Part shown: in pieces, positions 2,413-62,025 of the stretch
Position numbering within the stretch: the stretch's first letter is position 1
Layout: each line of letters begins with the position of its first letter
From: Parachlamydiales bacterium
Lineage (GTDB): Bacteria; Chlamydiota; Chlamydiia; Chlamydiales; Parachlamydiaceae
Reading direction: 5' to 3'
Length of the DNA stretch: 64,000 nt
Assembly: GCA_963709145.1 (NCBI GenBank)
Contig: CAVPVT010000053.1
Location: 15,819 to 79,818, forward strand
The notes under the pieces: model-generated
Databases searched by the model: none
Seen by the model: only the letters and a program-made list of their open reading frames with translations
Told to the model about the DNA's origin: nothing
Program-made: the position numbers and the translations under genes

Positions 2413-4260
2413 TTAACTCCTTTTATTGGCTAACGTTGCAAGCTGCTGCATTTCGGCTTCTTCATTAATGAGGTTTTGCATGATAAATTGCTTCCGTTCA
2501 GGAGTATTTTTGCCCATGTAGAATTCTAGAGTCGGTTTGATATCGGAAAATGTATTGATGGTCACTTGTATAAGACGCATATTTTTACCGATAAAGGGTT
2601 TGAATTCATCGGGAGAGATTTCTCCCAATCCTTTAAAGCGGGTGACTTCAATCCCTTTTTTGAGTTCTTTTGAAGCTTGATCCCGTTCCTCTTCAGAGTA
2701 GCAGTAGATAGTTTTTTCTTTGTTACGCACTTTAAAGAGCGGGGTTTCGAGGATATAAAGATGGCCATTCATGACCAACCCTTCAAAGTAAGTGAGGAAG
2801 AAAGTGATGAGCAAGTTCCGAATGTGCATCCCATCCACATCTGCATCGGTGGCTAGGATCACTTTGTTATAGCGAAGGTTGTTGATATCATCTTCAATAT
2901 TTAAGGCGCTCATTAAGTTGAACATCTCTTCATTCTTGTAGAGCTGATCAAGTTTCATTCCATAAACATTTAAAGGTTTACCTCTTAAAGAAAACACCGC
3001 TTGGGTCATCGGATCGCGGGATGAAACGATGGAAGCACTCGCTGATTCCCCTTCTGTCAAGAAGATCATCGAGCTGTCCCCTTTACCTGAGGTGTCTTGG
3101 TAGTGGTATTTACTATCCCGTAATTTTGGGATTTTGAACGATATTTTCTTTTGCTTCTCTTTGGCTTCTTTTTTTACCGCAGCTAACTCTTTGCGAAGTT
3201 TTTCGTTAAAAACAATCCTTTCAATAATTCGATTTGCAGTATTTGGATTTTGATAAAGGAGATTGACGACAGCATCTTTGATCTCTTGAACAAGAGGACC
3301 TTTGAGATCGGTATTCCCCAGCTTGTTTTTAGTTTGAGACTCAAATATTGGGTCTTTCACTTTAACGAGGATTGTTCCTACCATCCCCTCACGCACATCA
3401 ACCCCTTGGAAGTTCTTTTTACTGTACTCGTTTACTCCTTTTAATATCCCTTCACGAAAGGCTGTCAGGTGTGTTCCTCCATCTGCAGTATATTGTCCGT
3501 TGACAAACGAAAAATAAGTCTCCCCATAGCTGTGAGTATGCAAAAAAGCGAATTCAAGCATTTTCCCGCGATAATGCAAAGGCTCGTAGAGTCGATCTTC
3601 GGTGACTTCGGTGTTGAGCAGATCTAAAAGGCCATTTTCCGATTGGATCGCTTCTCCATTGTAAACAAGCTTCAAACCTGTATTCAGGTAAGCATAATGC
3701 CACATCCGTTTTTGGATGTATTCTTTTTGAAATTTAAATTTTTTAAAGATCGCTGGGTCAGGAATAAATTCAATGAACGTTCCATTATGTTCTTTAGAGC
3801 CCCCTTTCTTTTCCTTGAGCAGTTTTCCTTCGGAAAAGATAGCTTCCGCGTACTGTCCGTCCCGATGACTTCGGACAATAAAATGGGCTGAAAGTGCATT
3901 GACTGCTTTGGTACCGACTCCATTTAAACCGACAGAAAATTGAAAAACGTCGTCATTGTATTTGGCACCCGTGTTGATTTTGCTGACGCAATCGATGATT
4001 TTACCTAAGGGAATCCCTCTTCCATAATCTCGAACCGATACCTTACCGGTTGCTTCATCGACATCGATATCGATCTGCTTACCATGCTTCATAATAAATT
4101 CATCGACACTATTATCGACCACTTCCTTTAGCATAACATAAATCCCATCGTCGGGATTTGAGCCATCCCCTAATCTCCCGATATACATCCCGGAGCGGAG
4201 ACGGATGTGTGTTAAAGAATCGAGTGTCGCGATCGTACTTTCATCGTATTGTTTAGTCAT
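2413..4260 (-). CDS. parE: type IIA DNA topoisomerase subunit B (ParE / second-gyrase-B type)
   Basis: 615-aa ORF with a GHKL ATPase box (LKEVVDNSVDE) and TOPRIM motifs (FLTEGESASAS; ILATDADVDGMHI). Confidence 0.85.
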   Translation of the reverse strand: MTKQYDESTIATLDSLTHIRLRSGMYIGRLGDGSNPDDGIYVMLKEVVDNSVDEFIMKHGKQIDIDVDEATGKVSVRDYGRGIPLGKIIDCVSKINTGAKYNDDVFQFSVGLNGVGTKAVNALSAHFIVRSHRDGQYAEAIFSEGKLLKEKKGGSKEHNGTFIEFIPDPAIFKKFKFQKEYIQKRMWHYAYLNTGLKLVYNGEAIQSENGLLDLLNTEVTEDRLYEPLHYRGKMLEFAFLHTHSYGETYFSFVNGQYTADGGTHLTAFREGILKGVNEYSKKNFQGVDVREGMVGTILVKVKDPIFESQTKNKLGNTDLKGPLVQEIKDAVVNLLYQNPNTANRIIERIVFNEKLRKELAAVKKEAKEKQKKISFKIPKLRDSKYHYQDTSGKGDSSMIFLTEGESASASIVSSRDPMTQAVFSLRGKPLNVYGMKLDQLYKNEEMFNLMSALNIEDDINNLRYNKVILATDADVDGMHIRNLLITFFLTYFEGLVMNGHLYILETPLFKVRNKEKTIYCYSEEERDQASKELKKGIEVTRFKGLGEISPDEFKPFIGKNMRLIQVTINTFSDIKPTLEFYMGKNTPERKQFIMQNLINEEAEMQQLATLANKRS

Positions 4261-4332
4261 GTCCGAAAACCACTTGAAAAGATGGAAAAATTAATGATAC
4301 TGATAATGATAACAGTACTAAGGCAAGATGGT

Positions 4333-5358
4333 ATGAAAAATTCCCCTATTTTTAAAGACAAAACTGTTCTTATCACCGGAGGTACGGGAAGCTTTGGTCG
4401 CGCATTTGCTAAAAGATTGCTCTCTGAAAATGACTGCCAGAAAGTCATTATATTGAGTCGGGATGAATGGAAACAATGGGATATGCAGCAAAGTGATCCG
4501 ATTTTTAATCATCCTAAAATCAGGTTTTTCCTTGGGGATGTCCGGGATGTGAACCGGCTTATCCGAGCTTTTAATGAGGTAGACTATGTCATCCATTCGG
4601 CAGCGTTAAAGCAAGTCCCTGCAGCTGAGTATAATCCAACTGAATTCGTAAAAACGAATGTGAGTGGCGGAATGAATGTGATCGATGCCGCAATTACTTG
4701 CGGTGTTAAAAAAGTGATTGCACTTTCGACCGATAAAGCGGTCAATCCTGTAAACCTCTATGGGGCAACGAAACTTTGTTCCGATAAACTTTTTATAGCT
4801 GGGAATTCTTATGTAGGTAAACGGGGATATCCTGTTTTTTCGGTTGTAAGGTATGGGAATGTGGCTGGAAGTCGAGGTTCGGTCGTTCCTTTTTGGGGGA
4901 AAATGATTCGGGAAGGAGTTAAAGCTTTGCCAATTACAGATCCCCGCATGACCCGTTTTTGGATCACTCTGGAGGAAGCTGTGGGGCTCGTGATCAAGGT
5001 TCTCAAAGAGGGAAGAGGGGGAGAAGTTTACGTACCTAAAATCCCCAGCTTTAAAATTGTGGACTTAGCCAAAGCAATGGCGCCCAACCTACCTTATGAT
5101 GTGAAGGGGATTCGGGAAGGAGAAAAGTTGCATGAGCTGATGATTGGGGTTGATGATTCACGCCACACGTACGAGTTTGATGACCATTTCATCATTACGC
5201 CTGAGCATGTCACCCATGATCCGGCGTTGCTAAAAAAGTTCCTTGCAGGTCGTCAAGGAATCCCTTTGCCAGACAATTTTTCGTATACTTCCGACAATAA
5301 CTCCCAATGGCTGACCGCTGCCCAACTTAAGAAGCTGGTTTCTCTTTATTTGATTTAG
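4333..5358 (+). CDS. pseB: UDP-N-acetylglucosamine 4,6-dehydratase, PseB/FlaA1/CapD family
   Basis: Start moved from the track's 4249 to ATG 4333 (MKNSPIFKDKTVLITGGTGSFG Rossmann motif). SRDEWKQ, GDVRD and LSTDKAVNPVNLYGATK match the PseB/FlaA1-type short-chain dehydratases. Confidence 0.7.
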   Translation: MKNSPIFKDKTVLITGGTGSFGRAFAKRLLSENDCQKVIILSRDEWKQWDMQQSDPIFNHPKIRFFLGDVRDVNRLIRAFNEVDYVIHSAALKQVPAAEYNPTEFVKTNVSGGMNVIDAAITCGVKKVIALSTDKAVNPVNLYGATKLCSDKLFIAGNSYVGKRGYPVFSVVRYGNVAGSRGSVVPFWGKMIREGVKALPITDPRMTRFWITLEEAVGLVIKVLKEGRGGEVYVPKIPSFKIVDLAKAMAPNLPYDVKGIREGEKLHELMIGVDDSRHTYEFDDHFIITPEHVTHDPALLKKFLAGRQGIPLPDNFSYTSDNNSQWLTAAQLKKLVSLYLI

Positions 5359-11976: not shown

Positions 11977-12657
11977 ATGGTCATTATTTTTGATCTTGAT
12001 GACACCTTGTATGATGAGTCACAATTTATCCGAAGCGGCTTTAAGGCTGTCGCTAAATATCTTGCCCCTCTACTCAACCTTAACCAAGAAAACATTGTTT
12101 CCGACCTTGAAAAAGAATGTGCTCAACAACGCGATTTGGTGTTCAACCGCTTTTTAGCCAAACATAAAATCACATCGGAGCAAGTGATCGATCATTGTGT
12201 AGGCATCTACCGCTACAATGAACCCTCTCTTTCCCTTTATCCTGAAGCGCTCCCCTGCTTTGAACGATTGGAGAATTATCCCCTTTATGTTCTCACAGAT
12301 GGGAATCGGATTGTTCAATGGAATAAATTTTTGGCCCTCGGTTTGCAACCGATCATGAAAAAATGTGTCTGCACTGATGAATATGGGCTATACCGCAACA
12401 AACCGTCTTCCTACTGCTTTGAAAAAATTTGCGAATGGGAAAAAATTTCCCCCTCGCAAGTTGTATATGTCGCGGATAATCCCTACAAAGATTTTATTGG
12501 AATAAAACCTTTAGGTTTTCGCACAGTGCGAGTGCTGACAGGAGCCAATGCCAAAGCTTGGGTATTTCCACGCTGGGATGGGGATATGAAAATTATGAAT
12601 TTAGGGGCACTGGATGTCCCGATGTTGAAAAAATTAATTAGGATTAACAATGCTTGA
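11977..12657 (+). CDS. HAD-superfamily hydrolase
   Basis: 226-aa ORF with HAD motif I at the N-terminus (IIFDLDDTLYD) and a late acidic motif (VYVADNPYKD). It starts 16 nt after the regulator stop and overlaps the next gene by 8 nt. Confidence 0.65.
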   Translation: MVIIFDLDDTLYDESQFIRSGFKAVAKYLAPLLNLNQENIVSDLEKECAQQRDLVFNRFLAKHKITSEQVIDHCVGIYRYNEPSLSLYPEALPCFERLENYPLYVLTDGNRIVQWNKFLALGLQPIMKKCVCTDEYGLYRNKPSSYCFEKICEWEKISPSQVVYVADNPYKDFIGIKPLGFRTVRVLTGANAKAWVFPRWDGDMKIMNLGALDVPMLKKLIRINNA

Positions 12658-13702
12658 AATCACAATCGGATCGCGCAAGGTAGGGTCAGCTTACCCCCCA
12701 TTCATCACCGCAGAGATATCTGGGAATCACAATGGTTCCTTAGAACGAGCTTTAAGCTTAGTCGATGCAGCTAAAAAGGCAGGAGTGGATGCTATCAAGC
12801 TACAAACTTATACACCGGATACAATGACTTTAGATCGGAAAGATGGGGATTTTTTTATTTCTAATCCCAAGAGTTTATGGAAAGGTAAATCGCTTTATGA
12901 TCTGTATAAGGAGGCATATACTCCTTGGGAGTGGCATAAGCCTATTTTCGATCGATGTCAGAAGTTGGGGTTAATCTTTTACAGCTCTCCTTTTGATGCT
13001 AGTGCGATCGATTTTCTCGAAAAATTCAACGTTCCTTGTTACAAAATTGCCGCCAATGAGCTTGGGGATCATGCTCTAATTTGCAAAGCGGCCAAAACAG
13101 GCAAGCCGTTAATTCTTTCAACAAGCACCTCGACGTTTGCGGAAATCGATGAAGCTGTGAGAGCCGTGCGTGAGGCAGGGTGCAAGGAACTTTTACTCCT
13201 CAAAGGCACCAATGCTTATCCAGCACCCCCAGAAGATATCAATCTGCGGACCCTTCCTCATCTAGTCGAAAGTTTTAACGTCCCTGTAGGCCTTTCAGAC
13301 CATAGTTCGGGGATTGGAGTGGCCATTGCTAGTATTCCGTTTGGCTCTTGTGCGATTGAAAAACATATGACACTATCGCGGACAGAAGGAGGAGTCGATG
13401 CAGCCTTTTCGTTGGAACCGAAGGAAATGGGAGAACTGGTCAGAGAAAGTCGACGAGCTTGGCAGGCACTTGGAAAAGTGTATTATGGGGTGCTGGATTC
13501 AGAAAAAAGTTCCCATTCGCATAAAAGATCCCTTTATTTTGTGAATAAGGTTAAAGCGGGGAACAAAGTTAAAGCTTCCGATATCCGTTCCATCAGACCA
13601 GGGAGTGGCCTTCCTCCTAAATTTTTTGATATTATAGTAGGTCTCAAAGTCTCCCATGATGTGGAAGTTGGGACCCCGGTTCAGTGGGAATTATTCCATT
13701 GA
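12650..13702 (+). CDS. pseI: nonulosonic acid synthase, NeuB/PseI family (pseudaminic-acid-synthase-like)
   Basis: 350-aa ORF with a NeuB-family barrel (FITAEISGNHNGSLERAL; AGVDAIKLQTY; PCYKIAANEL; GLSDHS). It has a C-terminal SAF-like domain (IRSIRPGSGLPPKFF). Confidence 0.7.
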   Translation: MLEITIGSRKVGSAYPPFITAEISGNHNGSLERALSLVDAAKKAGVDAIKLQTYTPDTMTLDRKDGDFFISNPKSLWKGKSLYDLYKEAYTPWEWHKPIFDRCQKLGLIFYSSPFDASAIDFLEKFNVPCYKIAANELGDHALICKAAKTGKPLILSTSTSTFAEIDEAVRAVREAGCKELLLLKGTNAYPAPPEDINLRTLPHLVESFNVPVGLSDHSSGIGVAIASIPFGSCAIEKHMTLSRTEGGVDAAFSLEPKEMGELVRESRRAWQALGKVYYGVLDSEKSSHSHKRSLYFVNKVKAGNKVKASDIRSIRPGSGLPPKFFDIIVGLKVSHDVEVGTPVQWELFH

Positions 13703-13752
13703 ATTAAAACTTAAGTGTTTGTATGATATCCTCTTAATAAAAAGGGTATAAT

Positions 13753-16775: not shown

Positions 16776-16882
16776 ACAATTACAAATAATAATTATAAAA
16801 AATATTATACCATAAAATTATGATTTAATACAATCTTACTATTTTTTACTATTTTAAAACTAGAAAGTTGCAAACTGGATGA

Positions 16883-17209
16883 TCAGAATATCGCAACTCT
16901 GAAGTCTTAATTTTTTTTTGGTCGGATTTAAGACAGATTTTAACCAATAACGAGTGTGGCGGAGTTCTCCCGTTTTCACTAAAGCTCCTTTTCCACTAAG
17001 ATCCTCCCAATTCTACCATTTCCATCCTCGAAAGGATGAATGCTTTCAAAATAAACATGGGCAATAGAGGCTCTTACGAGTATGGATTCAGATGATCGTG
17101 TTGAATTAAACCAATCAATAAAAGCAGTCATCTGCGCGGGGACATTCGACGACGGAGGCGCCTCAAAAAAAACTTTGCGTGAGTCATATCGATGCGAAAT
17201 AATCTGCAT
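16883..17209 (-). pseudogene. truncated, internally deleted copy of the Fic gene at 18703-19845
   Basis: 16883-16994 is near-identical to the fic 3' end (about 18703-18826). 16995-17209 is near-identical to the Fic-motif region (about 19200-19412). The ~375 bp between and the whole 5' third are missing. The 76-aa ORF 16979-17209 still reads HPFEDGNGRIGR. Confidence 0.75.
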
Positions 17210-17338
17210 AGGCTAATATCGATGAGTCAACGTCTTTTAGTTGATGAAATAATTCATTATGATATAATAATTAATGAATCAAAGAGGATTATATTAAAAA
17301 ATTAATTAATAAAAAAATATTTAACTGGAGCATTAGCT

Positions 17339-18637: not shown

Positions 18638-18702
18638 AAACCCGGTGAAGTCTGGGTGGTTTCGGTCTTTTTTTTGCATGAAGTCGGGATTTCGCATGAA
18701 GG

Positions 18703-19845: not shown

Positions 19846-19919
19846 GAGTTATAGACCTCTATTCTATAACTCAAATTTATACATAAACGTGAGTTATAGA
19901 GCAAGGCTCTATAACTCAC
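19845..19919. promoter_or_regulatory. two inverted repeats sharing the half-site TGAGTTATAG, directly upstream of or overlapping the fic start
   Basis: IR1 is TGAGTTATAG-N9-CTATAACTCA (19845-19873). IR2 is GTGAGTTATAGAG-N5-CTCTATAACTCAC (19889-19919). Both arms are perfect. Confidence 0.4.
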
Positions 19920-19947
19920 GCGCTGCTTTTCCATATGCCCTGATAGC

Positions 19948-19982
19948 AAAAATGTGGGGCCAGGCGTGGCCCCACATTTTTT
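19948..19982. terminator. bidirectional intrinsic terminator hairpin
   Basis: AAAAATGTGGGGCC-AGGCGT-GGCCCCACATTTTTT has a 14-bp perfect stem flanked by A and T runs. It lies between the USP-like remnant and the fic promoter region. Confidence 0.6.
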
Positions 19983-19992
19983 AGATGAGCTA

Positions 19993-20498
19993 TTAGCTTG
20001 GATTAACTTTCCTGTAAACAAGATAATTAGCAAGAATCTTAAATTCAGTATTAGAAGGTTCGACCACTGTGATTACTGAATCATCGCAGAATTTCCATTT
20101 ACTATTCTCCTTTACTACCGATGTCCAATGAACCTGACCATGATTCTGGCAAAAGCCCACAAGTTCGTATTGAGCAACTTTAATTGTTTTATCTTCAAAC
20201 AAGCTTGCTAGATTAACAATGGAGTCAACAGATGGGTTCACCTGAGATGATCAAAACGAAATACTATCAACTCGGGAGGGGTTCCGACAATTTTAGTTTC
20301 TTGTGTCACATTTTTCGCCTGCATAGGAATTTTCTTAACTTCAAATTTCCAAGGATCCTTAAGTACTACTTGCTTGCTAGATTTGGCTTGATCAACTGCT
20401 TGCTGCACAGAAGTATGATTTCCCCGCAAAATGAAAACTCCCTGAGGATTTATTTCAATAAAAACCAGAAAAAACCAGAAAAAAACTAGGGAATTCAT
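19993..20498 (-). pseudogene. C-terminal remnant of a ubiquitin-specific protease (USP/UCH, peptidase C19-like), frameshifted and 5'-truncated
   Basis: ORF 20238-20498 ends PPELIVFRFDHLR (like the P-vL-i-LkRF segment). In another frame, ORF 19993-20241 reads YELVGFCQNHGQVHWTSVVKENSKWKFCDDSVITVVEP ... ANYLVYRKV, which is the His-box pattern Y-L-h-H-G ... H-W/Y ... W-FdD-V ... Y-L-Y-R. No Cys-box is present upstream. Confidence 0.4.
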
Positions 20499-20675
20499 TC
20501 AAAACTAATAGTCTTGAAGCAAAAAAAAAATAGGTATTGCTAGAGTTAGATAAATTAAAACAAAAATTACTATGGAACTCTGTACAAAAAGCCAAGAAGA
20601 TCGAGGAGGTTTGTCTAGGAAGCCAGCGAAATGACCAAAACATTCTAGAAACTCAGATCTTTTGAAATTAGCTAT

Positions 20676-21119
20676 CTATTTGCCTTTTTTCCTTTTGACC
20701 AATTCGGGAAATAATTCCTCAAATAACCAAGGACATGCTTCTGGGAAAGTTTTTTTGTCTAATCCCGTTTCAGAGGATGCCTCTAGCTTAGCAGAATAAT
20801 AAGCATCCGGCATGAATTCAGAAACATTTTTATTAAGGCTAGGATTTTTCTGGACTAATCTTCGTATTCTAAATTTTGCATTTTCAACGGAGTTTTCCCA
20901 AGAGTTGCTTCGCATGGCTGGTTGGAATTTTATCTTTAGAAGATATACAAAAAGCACAATAAGGTGGTTTTCAATGGCATTTTTCTCTGAATTCCCCAAG
21001 GATTCAATCTCCGCTATCAAATTTCTTAAATCCAATTTTTCGTATTCCTTTTTCTTTAGAAAAGTGACTTGAGTTCTTGTCCATTTGTAAAAATCATCAT
21101 CATGTGATAATGCTTCCAA
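20676..21119 (-). CDS. DUF29 family protein
   Basis: 147-aa ORF (TTG start). DDFYKWTRTQVTFLKKKEYEKLDLRNLIAEIESLGNSEKNAIENHL matches the DUF29 helical-bundle pattern. Confidence 0.65.
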   Translation of the reverse strand: MEALSHDDDFYKWTRTQVTFLKKKEYEKLDLRNLIAEIESLGNSEKNAIENHLIVLFVYLLKIKFQPAMRSNSWENSVENAKFRIRRLVQKNPSLNKNVSEFMPDAYYSAKLEASSETGLDKKTFPEACPWLFEELFPELVKRKKGK

Positions 21120-21277
21120 CTTTTCAGGGGAAACAACCGACAGCCTTTTACAAGACGCATGAATAGCTTTTTTTTCGTTTTCATAAGCTTCTATTATAGC
21201 TAATCTTTTGTTATTTAAGTTTAAGCAATTTGTATTGTCAAATTACATTTACGCTCGACTTGCGACATCAAAATTGC

Positions 21278-22137
21278 TTACATCGAGACCCATTGATAGG
21301 CATTGCCGGAATGTACCACGTGTCCAAATCCTGGAGCGGGCACATGAGCACCGCCAATTAAGATGTGTCTGTCCGCCGCTAAATCAAAGATGCGAAGCCG
21401 GCTTTCGACTGCTTTAGGTCCATTCGCATCAAAAAAGGTATAAAGAAAAGGATATTTAAACTGGATTCCTGCGCTATGGACAAGGTCACCCCACAAAAGA
21501 AGCTGTTCTCCTTCAGATGTAAACAAAAAAGCTGTATGACCCGGCGTGTGACCAGCTGTATTGACAGCTTGAATTCCTAAAATACCCGTCTCTTCAGTAT
21601 CAAGAAGACGTAAGTGTCCTTTTTCTTCATAGGGAGCTAACATTTCCCGAGCTAAAGCAAAACAAGGCTTAGCATCGTCGATAACATCCGTTTCGTTAGC
21701 GGGATTACGCCAAAAATTTGCTTCAACACTCGATAAGCAAACAGTCGCATTAAGAAAAGCGGGCTGTCCTTCAGAAGTAAGCAAACCACACATATGGTCC
21801 GGATGCAAATGAGTGATCAAAACGAAGGAAATATCTTCCGGCTTATAACCCACTTTTTTAGACTTTCATTGAGAAAGCCTGTGTTTTCTCCACAGCGCAG
21901 TCCACAGCCTGAGTCGACGAGCACCAAATGCTCTCCAGTATCCACGAGAAATCCAAAGACAGGTGTTCGTACTACTAACGGACTTATGCAGGCTATCCCA
22001 GCTTCATCCAACAATTGTTGAAAATCATCAGGATTACCATTCACAAACATATGTTGATCAAGGTCAAAGTATCCATCATACAAAGAACACACCGACCATT
22101 TTCCAAATGGGATTTTTTCTTCAGCTGTAAGATTCAC
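21278..22137 (-). pseudogene. MBL-fold metallo-hydrolase split by a single frameshift
   Basis: The N-terminal ORF (21817-22137) reads FLVDTGEHLVLVDSGCG. The C-terminal ORF (21278-21853) has the HxHxDH motif (ITHLHPDHMCGL). Adding one base to the T6 run at 21854-21859 restores ESLKKVGYKPEDISFVLITH. Confidence 0.7.
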
Positions 22138-22248
22138 AATAGAATATGTAAAAAAAAAACCAGAAAATCTTCATCCAATTTTGCAACATAAAGAACCCCT
22201 TTTGAAACAAGGAATTCTATGCAAATCTAGAATAAAATGCTCAATAAA

Positions 22249-22728
22249 TTAATTCTCTACAGTTATTTGACGAAGAGGTTTACCTTTGGGGGTAAAGAGC
22301 ATGGCTGTACCACGGAGTTGACCATGGTGGTAGTTAAGGTTTGTTTTTGGAGCGCCATTAGGATAAAAGTAGCTTTGTGGACCGTCAAGGATTCCATTGA
22401 TATAATTTTGAAGAGAATAGAGTTCACCTGTTTCATAATAATAACGGAATTCCCCATGCCGCTGTCCGTCTTTGTAGAGGCGACCTTCCACTAATAACTA
22501 ATGAGTAAGACTAAAAAAGCGGGACGGCCCATGAAGTCGACCGTTGCGGTAGTAAGTTTCTTGCCGGATTTCCCCCTTAGGATAAAGGAGAAGACACTGT
22601 CCATCTCTTTTTCCCTCTTTTTCAAGCCACCATTCAGATTCGGAATTATCCTTAGTTCCTCCACGGAGTGTATGCGTTTTCCCCACCTTCGACCCATGGA
22701 TTTTTTTGTGGGGAATTTTAACGTCCAT
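22249..22728 (-). pseudogene. MORN-repeat (YwqK-like) protein interrupted by one in-frame TAG
   Basis: ORFs 22498-22728 and 22249-22491 are in the same frame, separated by TAG at 22498-22500. Both show MORN-variant repeats (GEIRQETYYRNGRLHG; GEFRYYYETGELYSLQNYINGILDG). Confidence 0.6.
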
Positions 22729-24609
22729 CGCCTACCTCTTTCAAAGCATCTTGAATAAAAGCCCTATTGTTTTTAGCGACATTTTGCAAGAAGAGGCACT
22801 TTTCCGCCTGCAGTTCCAATTTCTGGTCTGCAATTTCCTTTTCTGGCTTGCTTTCACGGGAAAGTCGCAGCATCTTCAAACGTTGTGTCATGAGTTGCCC
22901 ATAGACTGTATTAAATAGATCCAAAATATAGTTGTATGCGGGTTCATCTGCTAGCTCTGTTTCAGCCAATGCGATCCGTCCAGTCAATAATTCTTGCGGG
23001 ACTTCATCAGTCTTCTTAATCTGTTCACGTAAATTTAAGGATTCATCAATCAAGATTTGTAGGTGCTCCACCGACCTATCCAAACTTTTGAGCATTTTCT
23101 TCATCAAGTTAATGATTCTTCGCTGAGTCACTTTTGGCATACGGGTGTTTTCGATTTCTCCATGAACACGACTGCGTAAATCCTTTGGGACTTGTAGATA
23201 CTTTGCAATCACTTTATCTAAAGGACGATTCACGATTTCAGGAATACCAATCCCCCCTTCAGTGGCATTGACAATAACAATCTCTGGATTGTTCTTAGAA
23301 AAATCGGAGATCCATTGGGCCTCGGCCACCCATTTCCAAAGGGTATAAACAGGCTTCCCATAAATATCGAGGCGTTTTATGGGTTGATTCACCTCTTCAT
23401 CAATTTCAAAAATGGCTTTTTTTGTCACACCGGCATCCTGTATTACCCCAGGAGCATACGATTGCATATCGGTATATGCGAGGTCCATGCCGACAAATAT
23501 GATCGGATTACAACCTAAAGCTTTGGCAATTTCTACACACATATTGACGACGTTAAAGCCTTCATCCAATTCAATACTTTGCAGTCCAAGTTCTTTCTCA
23601 AACCAAAAGGGTGTGTCATATCCTCCTGCGCCAGAAAGGAACAATCTAGGACCATGGATGAGTTTAAAGGCTTCATGATACATCCGATTTCGGTAGAAAA
23701 ATGGAACCTCATAAGCCCGATTTGTGCTGAGACGCTCAAGTTGAGCTGAAAATGGGTCGATCCCTGCACCAAAATGGGGCAGGATATCTCGGGAGCTTAA
23801 AGCATTGAGTGAGGAACCTCCCGCGAAAATCAAGGCGCGATCCTCGAGCCCTTTTATTTTTTCATATGTTTCGCTAATGAAGGACCTGCACCACAAATGA
23901 TGGCGGGGACTCTGGAAAATTTGCCGAAGAGTGCGTTGCCATTATAAGAGCTGCCAAGTTGAAGTAAATTTCGGTAAAAATTTTGATAAAAATAATTACC
24001 TAGACCTAGAAATTCTTGAATGGCGACATTTTTTGTGTGAGTGTCGAAAAGAAGTTTGTTTTGAAGTTCAGTAAAGCGAGTTTCTTTATGCTTTTGATAG
24101 ACGGGGAGCGCCGCGACGGCGATAGTATTGGTCATGAAAGACCAGACAAGATGCTCCAAAACCCTATCTTGGTCTTTTAGGTCAGCAAAATAATAGAGTT
24201 GCACTTGAGGATCTTTTAGAATTTTAGCGGCTTGTGCCGTCTCCATTAGCCTGCGGATCACCCTCAAATCATCTTCAAGGAAAATCAAATGATGTCCGGG
24301 ATGACTTTTGAGCCAAGGTTTTGCAGCATCATACCAATACCCTAAGCCAGACCCATAAACGTAAAGAACTTGCACTTTATCTAATGAAAGCTTGCCAAAC
24401 CTTTCTTTGGCATCTTGGAGCGGGTCTTCCGAATCATGATAAATCACTTTTTTTCCATCGATCTCCCCTTTCAAATTCAACGCTTTATTTTTTGATTCAA
24501 AAAGGATGAAATTTTCTGGATCTACATAAGGAAGCATGACAGCCGCTTTAGGGGATATCAAAGCCCACTTTTCAATATTGTGATGAAAGGCATTAACGTT
24601 TGTTTTCAT
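22718..24609 (-). pseudogene. Maf-like / DUF115 (MptE-like) putative glycosyltransferase, copy 1, frameshifted
   Basis: ORFs 23854-24609 and 22718-23896 together are collinear with copy 2 (26017-27501). The break falls at GAGPSL | SETYEKIKGLEDRALIF, one base missing near 23875. Shared motifs are VYGSGLGYWYD, LIFLEDDL and NATEGGIGI. Confidence 0.65.
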
Positions 24610-25027
24610 TTTGAATGTACTGCTTTAAGAAGCTAACTTGACTTTGCATTTGGGTAAAGGCGTCCCGTAACTTGGCGCTCATGAGTGCGATCTGTTGATC
24701 TAGGGTTCTTCGCATAGCGGGAGATTTCCAGATCTGCTCTTTATTGGCATCCCCCTTCAAGCCGGTCAATTCTAGCATGGTGGCCGTTGAACCTTTAAGC
24801 GTTTCTAACTCCTCTTTGACTTGTTCTACAGCGGCTTTCATCTCTGGCAAACTATTGGGGTCTTTAGACAGGGTTTCTGACAATTGGATGACCTGCAATA
24901 GTACAGATTCTATCGCATCAGTCAAAATTTGTATTTTCTTGGTCATTTTTTCGAAAAACCCTTCTTTTTCAAGTTCTTCTAAATCCAGTTCTTCCCCTTG
25001 CGTACTCCAGCGACGTTCCGCTTTCAC
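24593..25027 (-). CDS. coiled-coil hypothetical protein; its N-terminus runs on from the decayed MORN repeats upstream
   Basis: 144-aa ORF with a GTG start. An internal ATG at 24946 (MTKKIQ...) is an alternative start. The upstream reading frames contain MORN repeats ending in ...WHENGALRKEIEFNESGEVKAERRW, which joins this ORF. Confidence 0.4.
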   Translation of the reverse strand: MKAERRWSTQGEELDLEELEKEGFFEKMTKKIQILTDAIESVLLQVIQLSETLSKDPNSLPEMKAAVEQVKEELETLKGSTATMLELTGLKGDANKEQIWKSPAMRRTLDQQIALMSAKLRDAFTQMQSQVSFLKQYIQNENKR

Positions 25028-25552
25028 CTCTCCCGATTCATTAAATTCGATTTCTTTTCTAAGAGCACCATTTTCATGCCATTCCTTGGTGCTTCCGCTG
25101 GGTGTGTCATTTTTATAGTAGGCCTCAAAAAGTTTTTGTCCTGTAGGTAAAATATACCGGTCGACGCCGTCCCTTTTTCCCTGGGAAAATTGGATTTCCC
25201 TTTAATAAGTCCGGAAGGGTAATGCAACTTAACCGTCCCATCTAGAAGGCCGTTAACGTAAGGGATAACACTCTTGAGGTTGCCATCAGGGTAGAAATAG
25301 CTTGCACCCCTTCTTTTTGATTATCCTTATAAACTTCCCGTGCGATAAATTGGCCATTAAGATAATAGAAGAAGGCTTTTCCTTGCGCCTTAAGCCATCC
25401 ACGAACCATGTACGGCTTAATACTTGCCCACTTTCACCATAGGCAGTCGAATGGCCGTTAATTTGTCGTCAGTGTAATATTCTTCTAAAATGATTTTTTA
25501 AGCCGGTACGTAGCGGCCGAACTTCCATTCCAAGGCTTAGGGCGAATCCCAT
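25028..25552 (-). pseudogene. decayed MORN-repeat coding region (at least 5 frame changes)
   Basis: Manual three-frame translation gives MORN pieces in different frames: GKAFFYYLNGQFIAREVYKDNQKEG, GASYFYPDGNLKSVIPYVNGLLDGTVKLHYPSGLIKGKSNF and GKRDGVDRYILPTGQKLFEAYYKNDTPSGSTKEWHENG. Confidence 0.45.
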
Positions 25553-25599
25553 TTTAGATCATCAACGGCAATAAAGGATTGATATTAATTTAAGTCCAA

Positions 25600-26016
25600 G
25601 TTCAGCTTATCTTAAATCGGCCTTGTATATCATTCAGGTGCTCAATGTCGAAGTCGTTTTTGGGAAATTCATATTGGACAGGAGTATTTTCAATGGATTG
25701 CTTTAGATAGCGAAGATGTGAAGGCCATCTTAATATATTGTGCATGCATACATAAATGTTTGGTAATGAAACAAGACTCGCGTAGGATGTTCAGACTGGG
25801 GATCTGTCTTAGTTTCGGAGGCTTCTTGGATGATATCGATAAATATGTCTAATTTTTTAAGCAGTTCCCCTGCCAGAGCTTTGTAGGCATCTTGACTGTC
25901 AAGTTTTTTAAAAGTTCTTCAGGAACTCATCGGTCGCTTTATGATCATCGATCATTTTTAAGACTTCAATCATATTAATACGTAGATCGTCGAGATTTCC
26001 GCGAGATTGGCATTTG
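25600..26016 (-). pseudogene. decayed C-terminal tail of Maf-like copy 2
   Basis: Copy 2 stops ~135 aa short of copy 1. Downstream frames read NLDDLRINMIEVLKMIDDHKATDEFLKNF, LDSQDAYKALAGELLKKLDIFIDIIQEA and HLRYLKQSIENT. These loosely parallel the copy-1 tail (SLDRSVEHLQILIDESLNLREQIKK; LADEPAYNYILDLF; LFLQNVAKNN). Confidence 0.35.
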
Positions 26017-27501
26017 TCATTTTTTCAGGCGGCGGTTCCGTTGAGCGGCTGCATGGATCAATGAATGGATATCGATCGAACGGGTTAGGTAGGTGTTAAT
26101 CGCCTCTTCAAAAGCGATATTTTGAACATTCAGGAATCCGATCCCTCCCTCGGTACAATTGATAAGCTTGAAGTAGGGATTTTGTTTCGAAAACATGGTA
26201 AACCAATAAGATTCTGCAATCCATTTCCAAAGGGTTAAGGTGTCTTTGCCGTAAATATCTTTATGGATAATCAGTTCTTCAGATTCCGATTTTGTGGTGA
26301 TCGTCGATTTTTCCTTGTGAATGGCATGGGATTCGATTCCTGGGGCATAAGAAACTCCTCCAGTATAGGCCAAGTCTTGTCCGATAAGGATAATGGGATT
26401 GCAACCGAGATGTTTTGCTAAGCTGACAGAGAAATTCACAACGTTAGCGCCGGTATCGAGTAGCTCAGTTGACATTCCTAATTTGGACTCTAACCAAGCC
26501 CCTGTCGTATAACCTCCGCTATTACAGACATAAAAAGTAGGGCCGTGCACAGCATTAAAGGCTTCCACATTTACCCTTAAAGTATAAATAAAAGGGGTTT
26601 CAAAGGCAGTATTCATAATGAGTCGGGTAAATTGCGGTGTAAAAGGGTCGACACTTATGCCAAAATGGGGATAAAGGTTATGGGCATTTAAAGAATTCAT
26701 AGCGCTCCCTCCACCAAAAATCACAGCTTTATCGGAGAGCTCTTTTAAATGGTCGAACTGTTTTGAAAGAGAGGGTCCAGCTCCACAAACAATGGCAGGA
26801 ATATCCTTAAAGTAGTTTTTCATGTCGGAAAAGATATAGGAAGCAGGGAACTTAAACACATTGCGAAAAAATTGGCTGTAAAAGATACGTCCGTAATCCA
26901 AATATTCCAGATGTTGAACTTCGAGCCAGTGTTTGTAGAATTCAAACTTAAATTGGATAAGAACATAGGATTCAGATCGGCGCTGAGAATATTCTCGTAG
27001 TGCTGTGATATGGACTTTTTTTAAGAGAAGCTTTTTAACCGCATTATAAAAATCTTCATCCGTCGAATATTTGGGATGGATGGGTAAAAGAAGAACTTGA
27101 GGGTCATCCAGCAAGTCTGTGGCTTCCGGAAGCTCAAGAAAGGTTCTTAGAAGGAATAAATCATCTTCAACAAAAAGGATTAAGCGGAAGGGTCTTGCCC
27201 TTAGCCATTCCTTAGCAACTTTATAATAATAGCCCAAGCCTACTCCGTAAATGACAATGACTTCAGTCGTGGCAAGGTCGATAGAATTTAACCATTGTTC
27301 GGCTTCGGCGAATGGATTTTCAGGGCTATAAAGATAATAATCTTTTCCTTCAATGGTCCTTTTTAAGTTGCGGATTTTGAAAAATCCTGTTTCACAGATT
27401 TTCCAGAAAGAGGGTTTTAAAGTGTCGAAAACAGGTGCAAATTTCGGGCAATTTTTTAAAAATAACTCGTAATTTTTTTTATAAGTAGGATTTTCAGCCA
27501 T
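26017..27501 (-). CDS. Maf-like / DUF115 (MptE-like) putative glycosyltransferase, copy 2 (C-terminally truncated)
   Basis: 494-aa ORF, paralogous to copy 1 along its length (IYGVGLGYYYK; ILFVEDDL; AIVCGAGPSL; NCTEGGIGF). The layout is that of motility-accessory-factor-type proteins. Confidence 0.7.
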   Translation of the reverse strand: MAENPTYKKNYELFLKNCPKFAPVFDTLKPSFWKICETGFFKIRNLKRTIEGKDYYLYSPENPFAEAEQWLNSIDLATTEVIVIYGVGLGYYYKVAKEWLRARPFRLILFVEDDLFLLRTFLELPEATDLLDDPQVLLLPIHPKYSTDEDFYNAVKKLLLKKVHITALREYSQRRSESYVLIQFKFEFYKHWLEVQHLEYLDYGRIFYSQFFRNVFKFPASYIFSDMKNYFKDIPAIVCGAGPSLSKQFDHLKELSDKAVIFGGGSAMNSLNAHNLYPHFGISVDPFTPQFTRLIMNTAFETPFIYTLRVNVEAFNAVHGPTFYVCNSGGYTTGAWLESKLGMSTELLDTGANVVNFSVSLAKHLGCNPIILIGQDLAYTGGVSYAPGIESHAIHKEKSTITTKSESEELIIHKDIYGKDTLTLWKWIAESYWFTMFSKQNPYFKLINCTEGGIGFLNVQNIAFEEAINTYLTRSIDIHSLIHAAAQRNRRLKK

Positions 27502-27508
27502 GATAGAC

Positions 27509-27955
27509 CTACATCCTTTTCCACTTGTCGCCGCCCATTTTCCGAAATTTACTTCGTCTTTTTACGACGGCACGTTTTTTGCCCTTAGGAGACTTTTGAA
27601 AGACTTTTACGGTATCACCCGCTTTTATTTTATCGGCAAGCTTTTGTAAAACAAAACGGATCCCTTCCGCGTCCCAACGCAATTTGACGGCTTTCAACCA
27701 GGTTTCTTTTTGTTTTTCTGTAAGATTTTGGGGGATCTTGAAAGGATTTCGATTTTGCGCATCGACGTTGATTCCGATTTTTTTAGCATCGCTTTCAACT
27801 TTTTCTTTAAATTGCAAAACAGCATTTTCGAGAAAGTTAAGCCTTTCAACAACATCGGGTGGAATTTTTTTAATCGGTTTGCTTGCATTCTCCTGCGCCA
27901 ATTGCATAAACTCAGACATCTCGCGGAGAATGTCATCGATAGGATCTTTTTTCAT
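27509..27955 (-). CDS. hypothetical protein with a strongly basic C-terminal tail
   Basis: 148-aa ORF ending 8 nt upstream of Maf-like copy 2. The tail reads KGKKRAVVKRRSKFRKMGGDKWKRM. I recognise no domain. Confidence 0.5.
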   Translation of the reverse strand: MKKDPIDDILREMSEFMQLAQENASKPIKKIPPDVVERLNFLENAVLQFKEKVESDAKKIGINVDAQNRNPFKIPQNLTEKQKETWLKAVKLRWDAEGIRFVLQKLADKIKAGDTVKVFQKSPKGKKRAVVKRRSKFRKMGGDKWKRM

Positions 27956-29395: not shown

Positions 29396-29464
29396 ACCTC
29401 TTTTTAAGTTGAATGTCTTGTAATTCTTATTATAACTCTCTTAAAAGGTTAGGACTAGAAAAAA

Positions 29465-29537
29465 CGCACCGAAGAGGGCTCGAACCTCCAACCACCCGGT
29501 TCGAAGCCGGGTACTCTATCCATTGAGCTATCGGTGC
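29465..29537 (-). tRNA. tRNA-Arg (anticodon UCG)
   Basis: The cloverleaf folds by hand: acceptor GCACCGA/TCGGTGC, anticodon arm CCCGG-CUUCGAA-CCGGG, T arm GGAGG-TTCGAGC-CCTCT. No encoded CCA. Confidence 0.9.
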
Positions 29538-29635
29538 AGAACTTGGTATAATAGAGGATTCAACGATTTATGGATAGCTCAGCAATTGCTGGGTAATAGA
29601 ATGAGTTCAGTTAGCCTGGAAAATGGAAAGAGCTT

Positions 29636-31379: not shown

Positions 31380-31463
31380 GCGAAAGTGGCGGAATTGGTA
31401 TACGCGCTACTTTGAGGTGGTAGTGAGGGAAACCTCGTGGGGGTTCAAGTCCCCCCTTTCGCA
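31380..31463 (+). tRNA. tRNA-Leu (anticodon GAG)
   Basis: The cloverleaf folds by hand: acceptor GCGAAAG/CTTTCGC, anticodon arm CTACT-TTGAGGT-GGTAG, a long variable arm, T arm GGGGG-TTCAAGT-CCCCC. Confidence 0.9.
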
Positions 31464-32503: not shown

Positions 32504-32587
32504 ATTTAATTTAAAATATTTATTGTACAAATTTTATAATTATTCCATTGTGCAATTTCATATTTTAAATTGTCAAAAGGTGATGCG

Positions 32588-40114: not shown

Positions 40115-40129
40115 AAGAGGAAACCTTAA

Positions 40130-45132: not shown

Positions 45133-45238
45133 ACAGCGTTTTAAAATGATTGAACTAGAAGGCATTGCGAAATATACTGAACTTTTACATGCAGCCAATT
45201 TAAGTAGAAGAAATTTATTGGTAAGTTAGCGGTTGAAA

Positions 45239-57132: not shown

Positions 57133-57134
57133 TT

Positions 57135-61998: not shown

Positions 61999-62025
61999 AA
62001 GAGATTACGATTGTTTTATTTAAGT

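What the first reader, a model, noticed from the sequence alone, without database searches (positions are those of the whole stretch)
22249..27955. Duplicated, decaying Maf(DUF115)-MORN-coiled-coil module: remains of a nonulosonic-acid protein glycosylation system?
Seen: the minus-strand gene order is as follows. (1) A 148-aa basic-tailed protein. (2) Maf-like copy 2, intact for 494 aa, then ~420 bp of frameshifted tail. (3) MORN repeats running into a coiled-coil ORF, with at least 5 frame changes. (4) Maf-like copy 1, with one base missing near 23875. (5) A MORN protein with one in-frame TAG at 22498-22500. The two Maf-like proteins align throughout (VYGSGLGYWYD/IYGVGLGYYYK; LIFLEDDL/ILFVEDDL; AIICGAGPSL/AIVCGAGPSL; NATEGGIGI/NCTEGGIGF). 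Established: DUF115/MptE-like Maf proteins are the proposed pseudaminic/legionaminic-acid transferases acting on flagellin in Campylobacter, Helicobacter and Aeromonas. maf genes there are switched by slipped-strand frameshifts. Inference: with pseB- and pseI-like genes in the same window, this lineage has or recently had such a glycosylation system. No flagellin gene is in the window and the phylum is classically non-flagellated. The acceptor is therefore unknown, and the co-duplicated MORN/coiled-coil proteins are candidates for acceptor or adaptor. Every member except the 148-aa ORF is damaged, so the system seems to be in the process of being lost.
Basis: partly seen in the sequence, partly recalled or inferred. 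Interest (0 to 1): 0.65.

Follow-up and report, generated by a model that had tools for sequence, protein, structure and literature searches.

The report
Broken chlamydial Maf–MORN glycosylation operon
This stretch is a damaged copy of a four-gene operon found in many non-flagellated environmental chlamydiae, which most likely attaches the sialic-acid-like sugar pseudaminic acid to an unknown protein; the damage here is ordinary gene decay, and the intact operon in relatives is the part worth studying.

Summary
Both Maf-like genes hit PF01973, the MORN repeats are real, and every frame break is present.

The anatomy needs correcting. This is not a recently duplicated five-gene module. It is one conserved operon, S148–mafA–mafB–mornB, with the same order and size as in intact relatives: L085 and L087 carry 148/150, 974/973, 631 and 156/157 aa.

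- **mafA:** the "MORN plus coiled-coil ORF" is the C-terminal half of MafA. The coiled coil is homologous to the small S protein.
- **mafA versus mafB:** they are ancient paralogs, 37% identical.
- **mornB:** it is a natural separate gene.

Lesions:
- **mafA:** about 9–12 frameshifts plus 2 TAA codons, all within 26035–25203.
- **mafB:** one base lost near 23867.
- **mornB:** a TAG at 22498–22500.

S148 is intact and under purifying selection. PseB and PseI score as equivalogs and are intact. In relatives pseI or pseB sits beside the operon, and no flagellin is present.

Best reading: recent, probably real decay (about 75–80%; reads not checkable) of a flagellum-independent Maf system. The MORN module would bind the acceptor and S would act as an adaptor. 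The acceptor is unknown. Interest is moderate and lies in the phylum-wide operon rather than in this broken copy.

The parts
27509..27955 (-). S148: intact small helical protein with a basic C-terminal tail (…KRRSKFRKMGGDKWKRM). It is the first gene of the operon.
   Evidence: The ORF is present. The family always sits directly upstream of the first maf gene, in 29 unique loci. It forms 159 clusters at 50% identity in 1.84e9 proteins, all about 135-165 aa. No Pfam or NCBIfam family matches. Against the 76%-identical L084 copy, pN is 0.14 and pS 0.82, which indicates purifying selection. The AF2 model gives three helices plus a disordered tail at low confidence.
26017..27501 (-). mafA, open N-terminal part: N-domain plus PF01973 catalytic core. 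It is homologous in frame to about codon 489 (about 26035); the last 5 codons and the TGA are out of frame.
   Evidence: Pfam E 6e-40. The model's top PDB hit is 5MU5 Maf, E 1.4e-16. It is 54% identical to L085 MafA. It keeps 64 of 69 family-invariant residues.
25203..26035 (-). mafA, degraded middle: helical region plus MORN_2 repeats. About 9-12 frameshifts at about 26033, 25996, 25910, 25766-25706, 25604, 25541/25517, 25458, 25385, 25301 and 25203, plus TAA at 25587-25585 and 25500-25498.
   Evidence: Frameshift-aware alignment to L085 and L087 MafA (974/973 aa) and to L001, L002 and P0007. Stop codons were checked directly.
24593..25201 (-). mafA, open C-terminal 202 codons: the last MORN repeats plus a helical tail domain homologous to S148 (…KEQIWKSPAMRR…). 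Its stop overlaps the mafB start by 17 nt.
   Evidence: Colinear with residues 770-965 of L085 MafA. Weak MORN_2 hit. The S-family HMM hits this ORF at E 3e-4 and long-Maf tails at 1.7e-8. hhalign of the S family against the tails gives probability 96%, E 3.6e-9, over 107 columns.
22718..24609 (-). mafB (the 631-aa type): a complete gene apart from one missing base at about 23866-23868.
   Evidence: Two ORFs, 23854-24609 and 22718-23896, both hit PF01973. Restoring a single base gives a clean 630-aa ORF that keeps 68 of 71 family-invariant residues. It is 68% identical to L085 MafB over its full length. The lesion was placed with orthologous DNA.
22249..22728 (-). mornB: a separate MORN_2 partner gene of about 158 codons with a nonsense TAG at 22498-22500. 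Its ATG at 22728 overlaps the mafB stop by 11 nt.
   Evidence: MORN_2 E 4.7e-11. It is 55% identical to the L085 156-aa gene, which has the same 11-nt overlap and a conserved M-x-V-x-I-P start. A separate overlapping MORN ORF follows a maf gene in 39 loci of relatives. The TAG was verified.
4249..5358 (+). pseB (UDP-GlcNAc 4,6-dehydratase, inverting), intact, in the conserved gyrB-pseB-hemA neighbourhood.
   Evidence: TIGR03589 equivalog, 491 bits against a cut-off of 408. In L021 the same gyrA-gyrB-pseB-hemA block abuts S-maf-morn.
11977..13702 (+). HAD-family hydrolase (11977-12657) overlapping pseI (12650-13702), both intact. Relative to L085 the pair is inserted between ctcC and the 248-aa gene.
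   Evidence: TIGR03586 PseI equivalog, 454 bits against a cut-off of 340. L085 has no pseI at this position. In L042 a PseI equivalog lies 2 nt upstream of a maf gene.

Best explanation
**Shown.** The region is this genome's copy of a conserved chlamydial operon, S–mafA–mafB–mornB. It sits between hpf–HSDR_N–Rieske and the ctcB/ctcC two-component genes.

- MafA is a long Maf paralog of about 970 aa. It carries an N-domain, the PF01973 glycosyltransferase core, a helical region, MORN_2 repeats and a C-terminal helical tail homologous to the small S protein.
- MafB is a 631-aa Maf followed by its own translationally coupled MORN_2 protein.
- Three of the four genes are disabled here:
  - mafA has about 9–12 frameshifts and two TAA codons, all in its middle third.
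  - mafB has one lost base.
  - mornB has one TAG.
- The substitution level in the Maf genes is no higher than in neighbouring intact genes, so inactivation is recent.

**Inferred.** In intact relatives the operon is a cytoplasmic Ser/Thr O-glycosylation system.
- It would use CMP-pseudaminic acid made through PseB…PseI.
- The MORN_2 module, fused or separate, would recruit the acceptor, as the TPR domain does in Shewanella Maf-1.
- S and the S-like tail would act as a small helical adaptor, as GlfM does for Maf-2.
- The acceptor is not flagellin and remains unknown.
For: **Family and fold**
- Pfam PF01973 on all Maf pieces.
- The AF2 model matches 5MU5 Maf at E 1.4e-16.

**Gene structure**
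- tblastn and frameshift-aware alignments are colinear with the 974/631/156-aa orthologs.
- L085 (GCA_039806825.1) and L087 show the same four genes, the same overlaps and the same flanks.

**Conservation**
- S followed by 1–4 maf genes occurs in about 30 loci.
- A maf gene with a separate overlapping MORN ORF occurs in 39 loci.
- All 80 best genome hits are chlamydial MAGs, four of them labelled Verrucomicrobia and about ten labelled only as uncultured bacterium.
- Parachlamydia acanthamoebae has an ortholog annotated as a Maf family protein.

**S and the MafA tail**
- hhalign gives probability 96%, E 3.6e-9.

**Link to pseudaminic acid**
- PseB and PseI are equivalogs in the window.
- pseI lies directly upstream of a maf gene in L042, and pseB-hemA lies next to S in L021.

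**Recent inactivation**
- mafB reads as a clean 630-aa ORF after one base is restored, and keeps 68 of 71 invariant residues.
- The divergence ratios d(window,L085)/d(L085,L087) are 1.3–1.6 for the Maf segments and 1.5–2.35 for the controls.

**Lesions are real**
- A 99.7%-identical sister contig (L083) carries a further 1-nt deletion at mafA codon 7.
- Lesions occur only in accessory genes. The gene for PEP carboxykinase (PEPCK) has at least 6 frameshifts confined to the gene, there is a broken metallo-beta-lactamase gene, and old ubiquitin-hydrolase remnants are present. About 45 kb of core genes, including a 2514-aa ORF, are clean.

**Precedents**
- TPR and GlfM as acceptor and adaptor modules: bioRxiv 10.1101/2023.12.03.569772.
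- Parachlamydiaceae lack flagellar genes: PMC5826181.
Against: - No reads could be inspected.
- The mafA lesions are mostly indels. They cluster in 833 nt, with none in the flanking 1465 and 606 nt, and show no excess substitutions. A patch of poor long-read consensus would produce this pattern too. Related MAGs in this collection appear to be Nanopore-based, and one of them (L081) also shows fragmented maf genes.
- pseB, pseI and S148 are intact, so the system as a whole may not be lost. Other maf paralogs may lie elsewhere in the genome.
- The donor sugar is inferred. Characterised Mafs can also use Neu5Ac or Kdo (bioRxiv 10.1101/2020.06.03.131540), and all chlamydiae make CMP-Kdo (my own knowledge).
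- pseC, pseF, pseG and pseH were not found in the window.
- No sequence link between S and GlfM was tested, and the S148 model has low confidence (pLDDT 57).
- NCBIfam PseD scores only 70 bits against a cut-off of 670.
Confidence: 0.7

Rival explanations
1. The frame breaks are assembly or consensus errors, for example a low-coverage or mixed-strain patch in a long-read metagenome assembly. Under this reading all four genes are intact in the organism.
For: - Lesions in mafA are about 85% indels, at about 15 per kb within one 833-nt patch, and mostly not at homopolymers.
- After frame correction, amino-acid divergence to L085 is not elevated.
- mafB has a single 1-nt deletion and is otherwise a perfect ORF.
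- Another MAG of the same apparent project (L081) also shows split maf genes.
Against: - Errors dense enough to give about 13 lesions in 833 nt should also hit the 45 kb of core genes, which are clean.
- The PEPCK lesions stop exactly at the gene's borders, and both neighbours are intact.
- Three lesions are clean nonsense substitutions: TAA 25500, TAA 25587 and TAG 22500.
- The 19.7–20.7 kb region holds remnants decayed beyond recognition.
- An independent near-identical contig carries yet another frameshift in mafA.
Confidence: 0.2
2. One reading: a recently duplicated Maf + MORN + coiled-coil module, whose co-duplicated MORN and coiled-coil proteins are independent candidate acceptors or adaptors.
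For: Two Maf-like genes lie in tandem, each followed by MORN repeats, and the two cores align throughout.
Against: - The copies are only 37% identical. Each has a closer ortholog in L085 and L087 (54–56% and 66–68%) at the same position.
- The tandem array is shared by many family-level lineages.
- The MORN/coiled-coil stretch aligns colinearly to residues 640–965 of single 954–1021-aa proteins.
Confidence: 0.04
3. Remodelling rather than loss. The 489-codon MafA core, the S-like tail ORF (24593–25201, possibly from GTG 25027) and S148 would stay functional, and only the acceptor-binding MORN part has been discarded.
For: - No lesions occur in 1465 + 606 nt, against about 13 in the 833 nt between them (P about 1e-6 under uniform decay).
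- The MafA core keeps 64 of 69 invariant residues.
- S148 is under purifying selection.
- pseB and pseI are intact.
Against: - The sister strain L083 has a frameshift at mafA codon 7.
- mafB and mornB are also hit.
- A Maf lacking its C-terminal helical region has no precedent among the homologs seen; the shortest intact ones are about 480–520 aa but are of a different subtype and are followed by a MORN gene.
Confidence: 0.1
4. The breaks are regulatory: phase variation or programmed frameshifting, as with the homopolymer-switched maf genes of Campylobacter.
For: The mafB lesion is a single base.
Against: - No lesion lies in a tract of 7 nt or more. The mafB site is AAACA^TATG.
- About 13 lesions in mafA and two or three nonsense codons cannot be switched back.
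Confidence: 0.02

Closest known systems
Shewanella oneidensis Maf-1 (Maf with a C-terminal TPR acceptor-binding domain; bioRxiv 10.1101/2023.12.03.569772)
   Same: A Maf core carrying a C-terminal repeat domain in one polypeptide. The donor is a CMP-nonulosonic acid made by a Pse pathway. Maf paralogs lie side by side.
   Different: The repeat domain here is MORN_2 (beta-hairpin repeats), not TPR, and it can be fused or a separate translationally coupled gene. No flagellin or flagellar genes are present. The acceptor is unknown.
Maf-2 + GlfM tripartite system (Shewanella, Kurthia, Pseudomonas; same preprint)
   Same: A small, soluble, helical protein encoded directly beside maf. The preprint's idea that the adaptor can be separate or built in is mirrored here: S is free-standing, and an S-like domain forms the MafA tail.
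   Different: S is 148 aa, with three predicted helices and a lysine/arginine-rich tail ending in an invariant Trp. GlfM is 89 aa and a predicted four-helix bundle. No sequence homology to GlfM, FliS or FliT was shown. Any adaptor function is inference.
Maf of Magnetospirillum magneticum AMB-1 (PDB 5MU5)
   Same: It is the best structural match of the modelled MafA 1-494: Foldseek E 1.4e-16, TM 0.58, 558 aligned columns.
   Different: Sequence identity is only 14%, and there was no sequence-level PDB hit. 5MU5 comes from a flagellated bacterium and has no MORN or S-like modules.
Campylobacter jejuni / Helicobacter maf (Cj1318 family; PseD, PseE, Maf4)
   Same: Multiple tandem PF01973 paralogs linked to Pse/Leg biosynthesis. 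NCBIfam PseD is the only NCBIfam model hit.
   Different: The PseD score is far below its cut-off (70 against 670 bits). Those genes sit in a flagellin glycosylation island and are switched by poly-G tracts. Neither feature is present here.
Non-flagellar nonulosonic-acid protein glycosylation (Tannerella forsythia surface proteins, PMC5420450)
   Same: It is a precedent for Pse/Leg on proteins other than flagellin.
   Different: There the sugar caps an oligosaccharide built by a general O-glycosylation system with unrelated transferases, not by a Maf enzyme.

Membership tests
Maf / MAF_flag10 (PF01973, motility-associated factor glycosyltransferases) | PF01973 domain above Pfam's gathering score | tested here: met
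   MafA scores 137.2 bits against 34.6. The MafB C-piece scores 102.4 bits. The MafB N-piece scores 28.5 bits, as a partial domain cut by the frameshift. L085 MafA scores 134.7 bits.
Maf / MAF_flag10 (PF01973, motility-associated factor glycosyltransferases) | Multi-domain Maf fold as in the solved structure 5MU5 | tested here: met
   The AF2 model has pLDDT 81. The top Foldseek PDB hit is 5mu5, E 1.4e-16, probability 1.0, TMq 0.58. The next hits are MptE kinases at E about 1e-3.
Maf / MAF_flag10 (PF01973, motility-associated factor glycosyltransferases) | Genomic linkage to nonulosonic-acid biosynthesis genes | tested here: met
   PseB and PseI equivalogs lie in the window, 17 and 9 kb away. 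pseI is 2 nt upstream of a maf gene in L042, and pseB-hemA lies next to S-maf in L021. pseC, pseF, pseG and pseH were not seen in the window.
Maf / MAF_flag10 (PF01973, motility-associated factor glycosyltransferases) | Linkage to flagellin or flagellar genes, with flagellin as acceptor | tested here: not met
   No flagellin family was hit in any window ORF of 120 aa or more, and none was listed among the called genes of loci L001, L002, L081, L082, L085 and L087. Parachlamydiaceae lack flagellar genes according to PMC5826181. The whole genome was not available.
Maf / MAF_flag10 (PF01973, motility-associated factor glycosyltransferases) | Transfer of a CMP-activated nonulosonic or ulosonic acid to Ser/Thr | not testable with these tools
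   This needs biochemistry or glycoproteomics.
PseD (NCBIfam NF050051, flagellin modification protein) | Score above the curated cut-off | tested here: not met
   70.1 and 44.4 bits against a cut-off of 670. This indicates distant family resemblance only.
GlfM-type Maf specificity factor | Small soluble protein encoded directly beside maf | tested here: met
   S148 ends 8 nt before the mafA start. The same arrangement is seen in about 30 loci.
GlfM-type Maf specificity factor | Four-helix bundle of about 90 aa with a conserved acidic residue in the last helix, and sequence relationship to GlfM/FliS/FliT | tested here: inconclusive
   The AF2 model of S148 has pLDDT 57 and shows three long helices plus a disordered basic tail. 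No FliS or FliT hit, nor any consistent Pfam hit, appeared in 25 members. The L085 MafA tail gives only a weak 4HB_MCP_1 hit, E 0.005. The GlfM sequence was not at hand for a direct comparison.
MORN_2 repeat proteins (PF07661) | PF07661 repeats above threshold | tested here: met
   The window mornB C-piece scores 42 bits against 29.6. L085 MornB scores 62.6 bits and L085 MafA 54.3 bits.
Pseudaminic acid pathway (PseB, C, H, G, I, F) | Equivalog-level hits for the pathway enzymes | tested here: inconclusive
   PseB (TIGR03589, 491 against 408) and PseI (TIGR03586, 454 against 340) are met. No PseC, PseH, PseG or PseF was found among window ORFs, and the GNAT at 45233-46081 is not PseH. The rest of the genome was not available.
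Phase-variable maf genes (Campylobacter type) | Frameshift located in a long homopolymeric tract | tested here: not met
   Lesion contexts are listed. The mafB lesion lies at AAACA^TATG.

The most novel reading that the evidence does not exclude
Environmental chlamydiae, which have no flagella, would maintain a phylum-wide protein O-glycosylation system that works without a flagellum. Its parts would be S, Maf paralogs and MORN_2 modules, fed by PseB…PseI.

Under this reading the system puts pseudaminic acid on a non-flagellin acceptor. By analogy with flagellin, which is modified before type III export, the acceptor may be a type III secretion substrate or a surface protein of the infectious stage. 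It could be a re-targeted relic of a flagellated ancestor.

MORN_2 would be a new acceptor-recognition module for Maf enzymes. The S/tail domain would be a new adaptor that exists both free and fused. The window would then show this system being shed in one lineage.
Probability: 0.35. Interest if true: 0.7.

Novelty: new variant of a known kind. Interest (0 to 1): 0.5.

Why it matters
Maf enzymes are known only as flagellin sialyl-like transferases. Here the family is conserved, in a fixed operon, across Parachlamydiaceae, Waddliaceae, Simkaniaceae and Rhabdochlamydiaceae MAGs and in cultivable Parachlamydia. That operon has 1–4 paralogs, MORN_2 modules and a dedicated small protein. Flagellar genes are reported absent from Parachlamydiaceae (PMC5826181), and none appeared in the loci read here.

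This makes a concrete question testable: what do obligate intracellular bacteria glycosylate with a bacterial sialic-acid mimic, and does it matter for host interaction? It also widens the known set of acceptor-recognition modules for Maf enzymes from TPR and GlfM to MORN_2 and the S domain.

For this genome alone the finding is modest. It is one more decaying accessory locus in a genome that also carries broken PEPCK, metallo-beta-lactamase and ubiquitin-hydrolase genes.

Tried and rejected
- **Gene fusion at the mafB|mornB junction.** I first read the junction at 22718–22728 as a second frameshift in a Maf-MORN fusion gene, because 744–830-aa fused homologs exist. I rejected this. L085 and L087 have a separate 156/157-aa gene with the same 11-nt overlap and a conserved start, and 39 loci show separate overlapping MORN ORFs.
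- **Placement of the mafB lesion.** I first put it in the A6 run at about 23860. Orthologous DNA moves it to about 23867.
- **Uncontrolled HMM iteration.** The small-protein iteration drifted into Maf proteins. I repeated it with a length filter and confirmed the S–tail link independently by hhalign.
- **Sigma-54 promoter.** I looked for TGG-N9-TGC within 200 nt upstream of S in 32 loci, because ctcC lies nearby. There were no matches.
- **Sequence search of PDB with MafA.** No hit; only the fold search worked.
- **Exact-product look-ups** of the window's 251-aa and 494-aa products, to find independent assemblies covering the lesions. Nothing was on record.
- **Homolog search for MafA.** It missed the 54%-identical L085 ortholog because of the candidate cap. 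The ortholog was found only through the mafB search.
- **Pfam and NCBIfam for S148** and for the 248-aa gene after pseI. No hits.
- **Literature.** Searches for chlamydial Maf, MORN or pseudaminic acid found nothing specific.
- **Fold search with the S148 model.** Not attempted, because the model is too uncertain (pLDDT 57).

Full report
**What is there**

- The 494-aa ORF (26017–27501) hits PF01973 (MptE-like, formerly MAF_flag10) at E 6e-40.
- The two pieces of the second copy hit the first and second parts of the same domain.
- The ORF at 22249–22491 hits MORN_2.
- An AlphaFold model of the 494-aa product (pLDDT 81) has the Maf glycosyltransferase of Magnetospirillum (5MU5) as its best PDB match by far, E 1.4e-16.

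The "would refute" condition of no DUF115 hit is therefore not met.

The window is from an environmental chlamydia. It encodes F-box, BTB, ankyrin and Fic proteins and the ctcB/ctcC sigma-54 two-component pair. All 80 best genome matches of the Maf are chlamydial MAGs, four of them labelled Verrucomicrobia and about ten labelled only as uncultured bacterium.

**Corrected anatomy**

Homologs come in three sizes:
- about 620 aa, Maf only;
- about 750–830 aa, Maf plus MORN_2;
- about 860–1020 aa, Maf plus MORN_2 plus a helical tail.

tblastn and a frameshift-aware alignment give two results. Reader items (2) and (3) are colinear with single long proteins. Items (4) and (5) are colinear with a Maf followed by a MORN module.

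The closest intact relatives settle the gene structure. These are L085 (NCBI GCA_039806825.1) and L087. Both read Rieske – S (148/150 aa) – MafA (974/973 aa) – MafB (631 aa) – MornB (156/157 aa), with 11-nt overlaps. BTB, ctcC, ctcB and rpsD follow, which is the window's own order.

The locus is therefore a four-gene operon.
- mafA and mafB are 37% identical to each other.
- They are 54% and 68% identical to their L085 orthologs, so they are old paralogs and not a recent duplication.
- mornB is a genuine separate gene. Its start (M-x-V-x-I-P) and the overlap are conserved.
- In 39 loci a separate MORN ORF follows a maf gene in another frame, while in others the two are fused.

**The small protein**

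S148 belongs to a family that always lies directly upstream of the first maf gene (29 unique loci).
- It forms 159 clusters at 50% identity in 1.84 billion proteins, all about 135–165 aa.
- It matches no Pfam or NCBIfam model.
- Its profile also matches the last about 100 residues of the long MafA-type proteins and the window's "coiled-coil ORF".
- Profile–profile comparison gives 96% probability, E 3.6e-9, over 107 columns.
- Against a 76%-identical relative, pN is 0.14 and pS 0.82, so the gene is under purifying selection.
- The structure model is weak (pLDDT 57): three helices and a disordered basic tail.

**Lesions**

*mafA*
- The frame is lost at about 26033.
- Further shifts follow at about 25996, 25910, 25766–25706, 25604, 25541/25517, 25458, 25385, 25301 and 25203.
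- TAA codons lie at 25587 and 25500.
- The last 202 codons (25201–24596) are open.

*mafB*
- One base is lost at about 23866–23868.
- Restoring a single base gives a clean 630-aa ORF that keeps 68 of 71 family-invariant residues.

*mornB*
- A TAG lies at 22498–22500.

Amino-acid divergence of every Maf segment from L085, relative to L085–L087, is 1.3–1.6. For the neighbouring intact genes it is 1.5–2.35. There is thus no excess of substitutions, and inactivation is recent.

**Are the lesions real?**

I could not see reads.

For an artefact:
- The mafA lesions are mostly indels packed into 833 nt, with clean flanks and no extra substitutions.
- Related MAGs appear to be long-read assemblies, and one of them (L081) also has split maf genes.

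For real decay:
- About 45 kb of core genes in the window, including ORFs of 2514 and 1158 aa, have no break.
- PEPCK carries at least 6 frameshifts confined exactly to that gene.
- A metallo-beta-lactamase gene is frameshifted.
- 19.7–20.7 kb holds remnants decayed beyond recognition, with only a weak ubiquitin-hydrolase (UCH) hit.
- Three lesions are clean nonsense substitutions.
- An independent contig 99.7% identical to the window (L083) carries a further 1-nt deletion at mafA codon 7.

I put real pseudogenes at about 75–80%. The clustering of mafA lesions in the middle third remains unexplained.

**What the intact system probably does**

*Shown*
- PseB and PseI are equivalog-level and intact in the window.
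- A PseI equivalog lies 2 nt upstream of a maf gene in L042.
- The gyrB–pseB–hemA block, also present in the window, abuts S–maf–morn in L021.
- No flagellin was found in the window or in the inspected loci.
- Parachlamydiaceae lack flagellar genes (PMC5826181).

*Established elsewhere*
- Maf-1 of Shewanella uses its C-terminal TPR domain to bind flagellin.
- Maf-2 needs the small cis-encoded helical protein GlfM (bioRxiv 10.1101/2023.12.03.569772).
- Some Mafs accept CMP-Neu5Ac or CMP-Kdo (bioRxiv 10.1101/2020.06.03.131540).

*Inference*
- The chlamydial Mafs transfer Pse, or possibly Kdo, onto Ser/Thr of a non-flagellin acceptor.
- MORN_2 is the acceptor-binding module.
- S and the S-like tail act as an adaptor.
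- The acceptor is unknown. A type III secretion substrate or a surface protein is a reasonable guess, but nothing here tests it.

**Comparison and novelty**

The Maf core passes the Pfam and fold tests for the family. It fails the flagellin-linkage feature and the PseD equivalog cut-off.

It is best filed as a new variant of the Maf kind. It has different accessory modules (MORN_2 and S), occurs in a phylum largely without flagella, and has no described function.
- NCBI already names the Parachlamydia protein a Maf family glycosyltransferase.
- I found no paper on it in the library searched.

The decay in this particular genome is ordinary. The conserved operon in relatives is the interesting lead.

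Noticed in passing
window 55398-57183 (- strand): The GTP-dependent PEP carboxykinase gene is broken into at least 7 frame pieces (at least 6 frameshifts). Classic motifs are still recognisable. Both neighbours, mreB (57135-58301) and a 394-aa ORF (54217-55401), are intact.
   Followed up: partly
window 21278-22137 (- strand): A metallo-beta-lactamase-fold gene is split by one frameshift into 106-aa and 191-aa ORFs that overlap by 37 nt.
   Followed up: partly
window 19731-20670: This stretch has no long ORF. It holds only short fragments, one with a weak ubiquitin C-terminal hydrolase (UCH) hit (E 2e-4). It looks like an old, heavily decayed eukaryote-like effector gene. A DUF29 gene (20676-21119) lies next to it.
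   Followed up: partly
window 11977-22200 compared with L085 12409-15555: Between mornB and ctcC the window carries about 10 kb: HAD-pseI, a 248-aa gene, BTB, F-box/TPR, Fic, DUF29 and remnants. L085 has only a BTB gene and a 250-aa gene there. The HAD-pseI pair is an insertion relative to L085. The HAD overlaps pseI by 8 nt, and its role is unknown.
   Followed up: partly
window 32570-42127 (+): A 2514-aa ORF with no Pfam hit is followed by a ShlB/FhaC-type transporter (665 aa), which suggests a two-partner secretion pair. The L085 ortholog (2472 aa) carries a TPS domain.
   Followed up: no
window 14496-18637, 47960-49123, 52991-54133: A set of eukaryote-like or effector-like proteins: BTB (759 aa), F-box + TPR (432 aa), a YopT/C58-like cysteine protease (387 aa, weak) and an ankyrin-repeat protein (380 aa). 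A Fic/DUF4172 protein lies at 18703-19845. A Fic gene is also next to the maf operon in L001 and L002.
   Followed up: no
window 61926-62192 (+): Three tRNA-Gly genes lie in a row (CCC, GCC, GCC) just upstream of trigger factor. tRNA-Arg(TCG) is at 29464-29538 and tRNA-Leu(GAG) at 31380-31463.
   Followed up: no
L083 1-1914 (= window 28654-26740): An independent contig from another sample is 99.7% identical to the window (5 mismatches, 1 indel). The indel is a 1-nt deletion at codon 7 of mafA (window about 27482), so a sister strain has an additional frameshift.
   Followed up: yes
L081 9539-18534: Another chlamydial MAG shows the operon in pieces: S149, Maf592, 92 aa, MORN 339 aa, Maf_N 206 aa, 595 aa, Maf787. 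This is either parallel decay or long-read assembly errors, and it is relevant to how far the window's breaks can be trusted.
   Followed up: no
L048-L080 (e.g. L053 7620-11626, Simkaniaceae complete genome CP073763.1): A second operon type occurs in Simkaniaceae, Rhabdochlamydiaceae and other MAGs: Maf of about 500 aa, then a separate MORN protein of about 260-290 aa, then Maf of about 600 aa. It has no S gene.
   Followed up: partly
L042 6134-12569: Gene row: 146 aa, then 782 aa (weak TPR/SH3/BatD hits), then pseI, then maf (615 aa), then 224 aa. The pseI stop is 2 nt from the maf start. The 146-aa and 782-aa proteins are uncharacterised and could be system components.
   Followed up: partly
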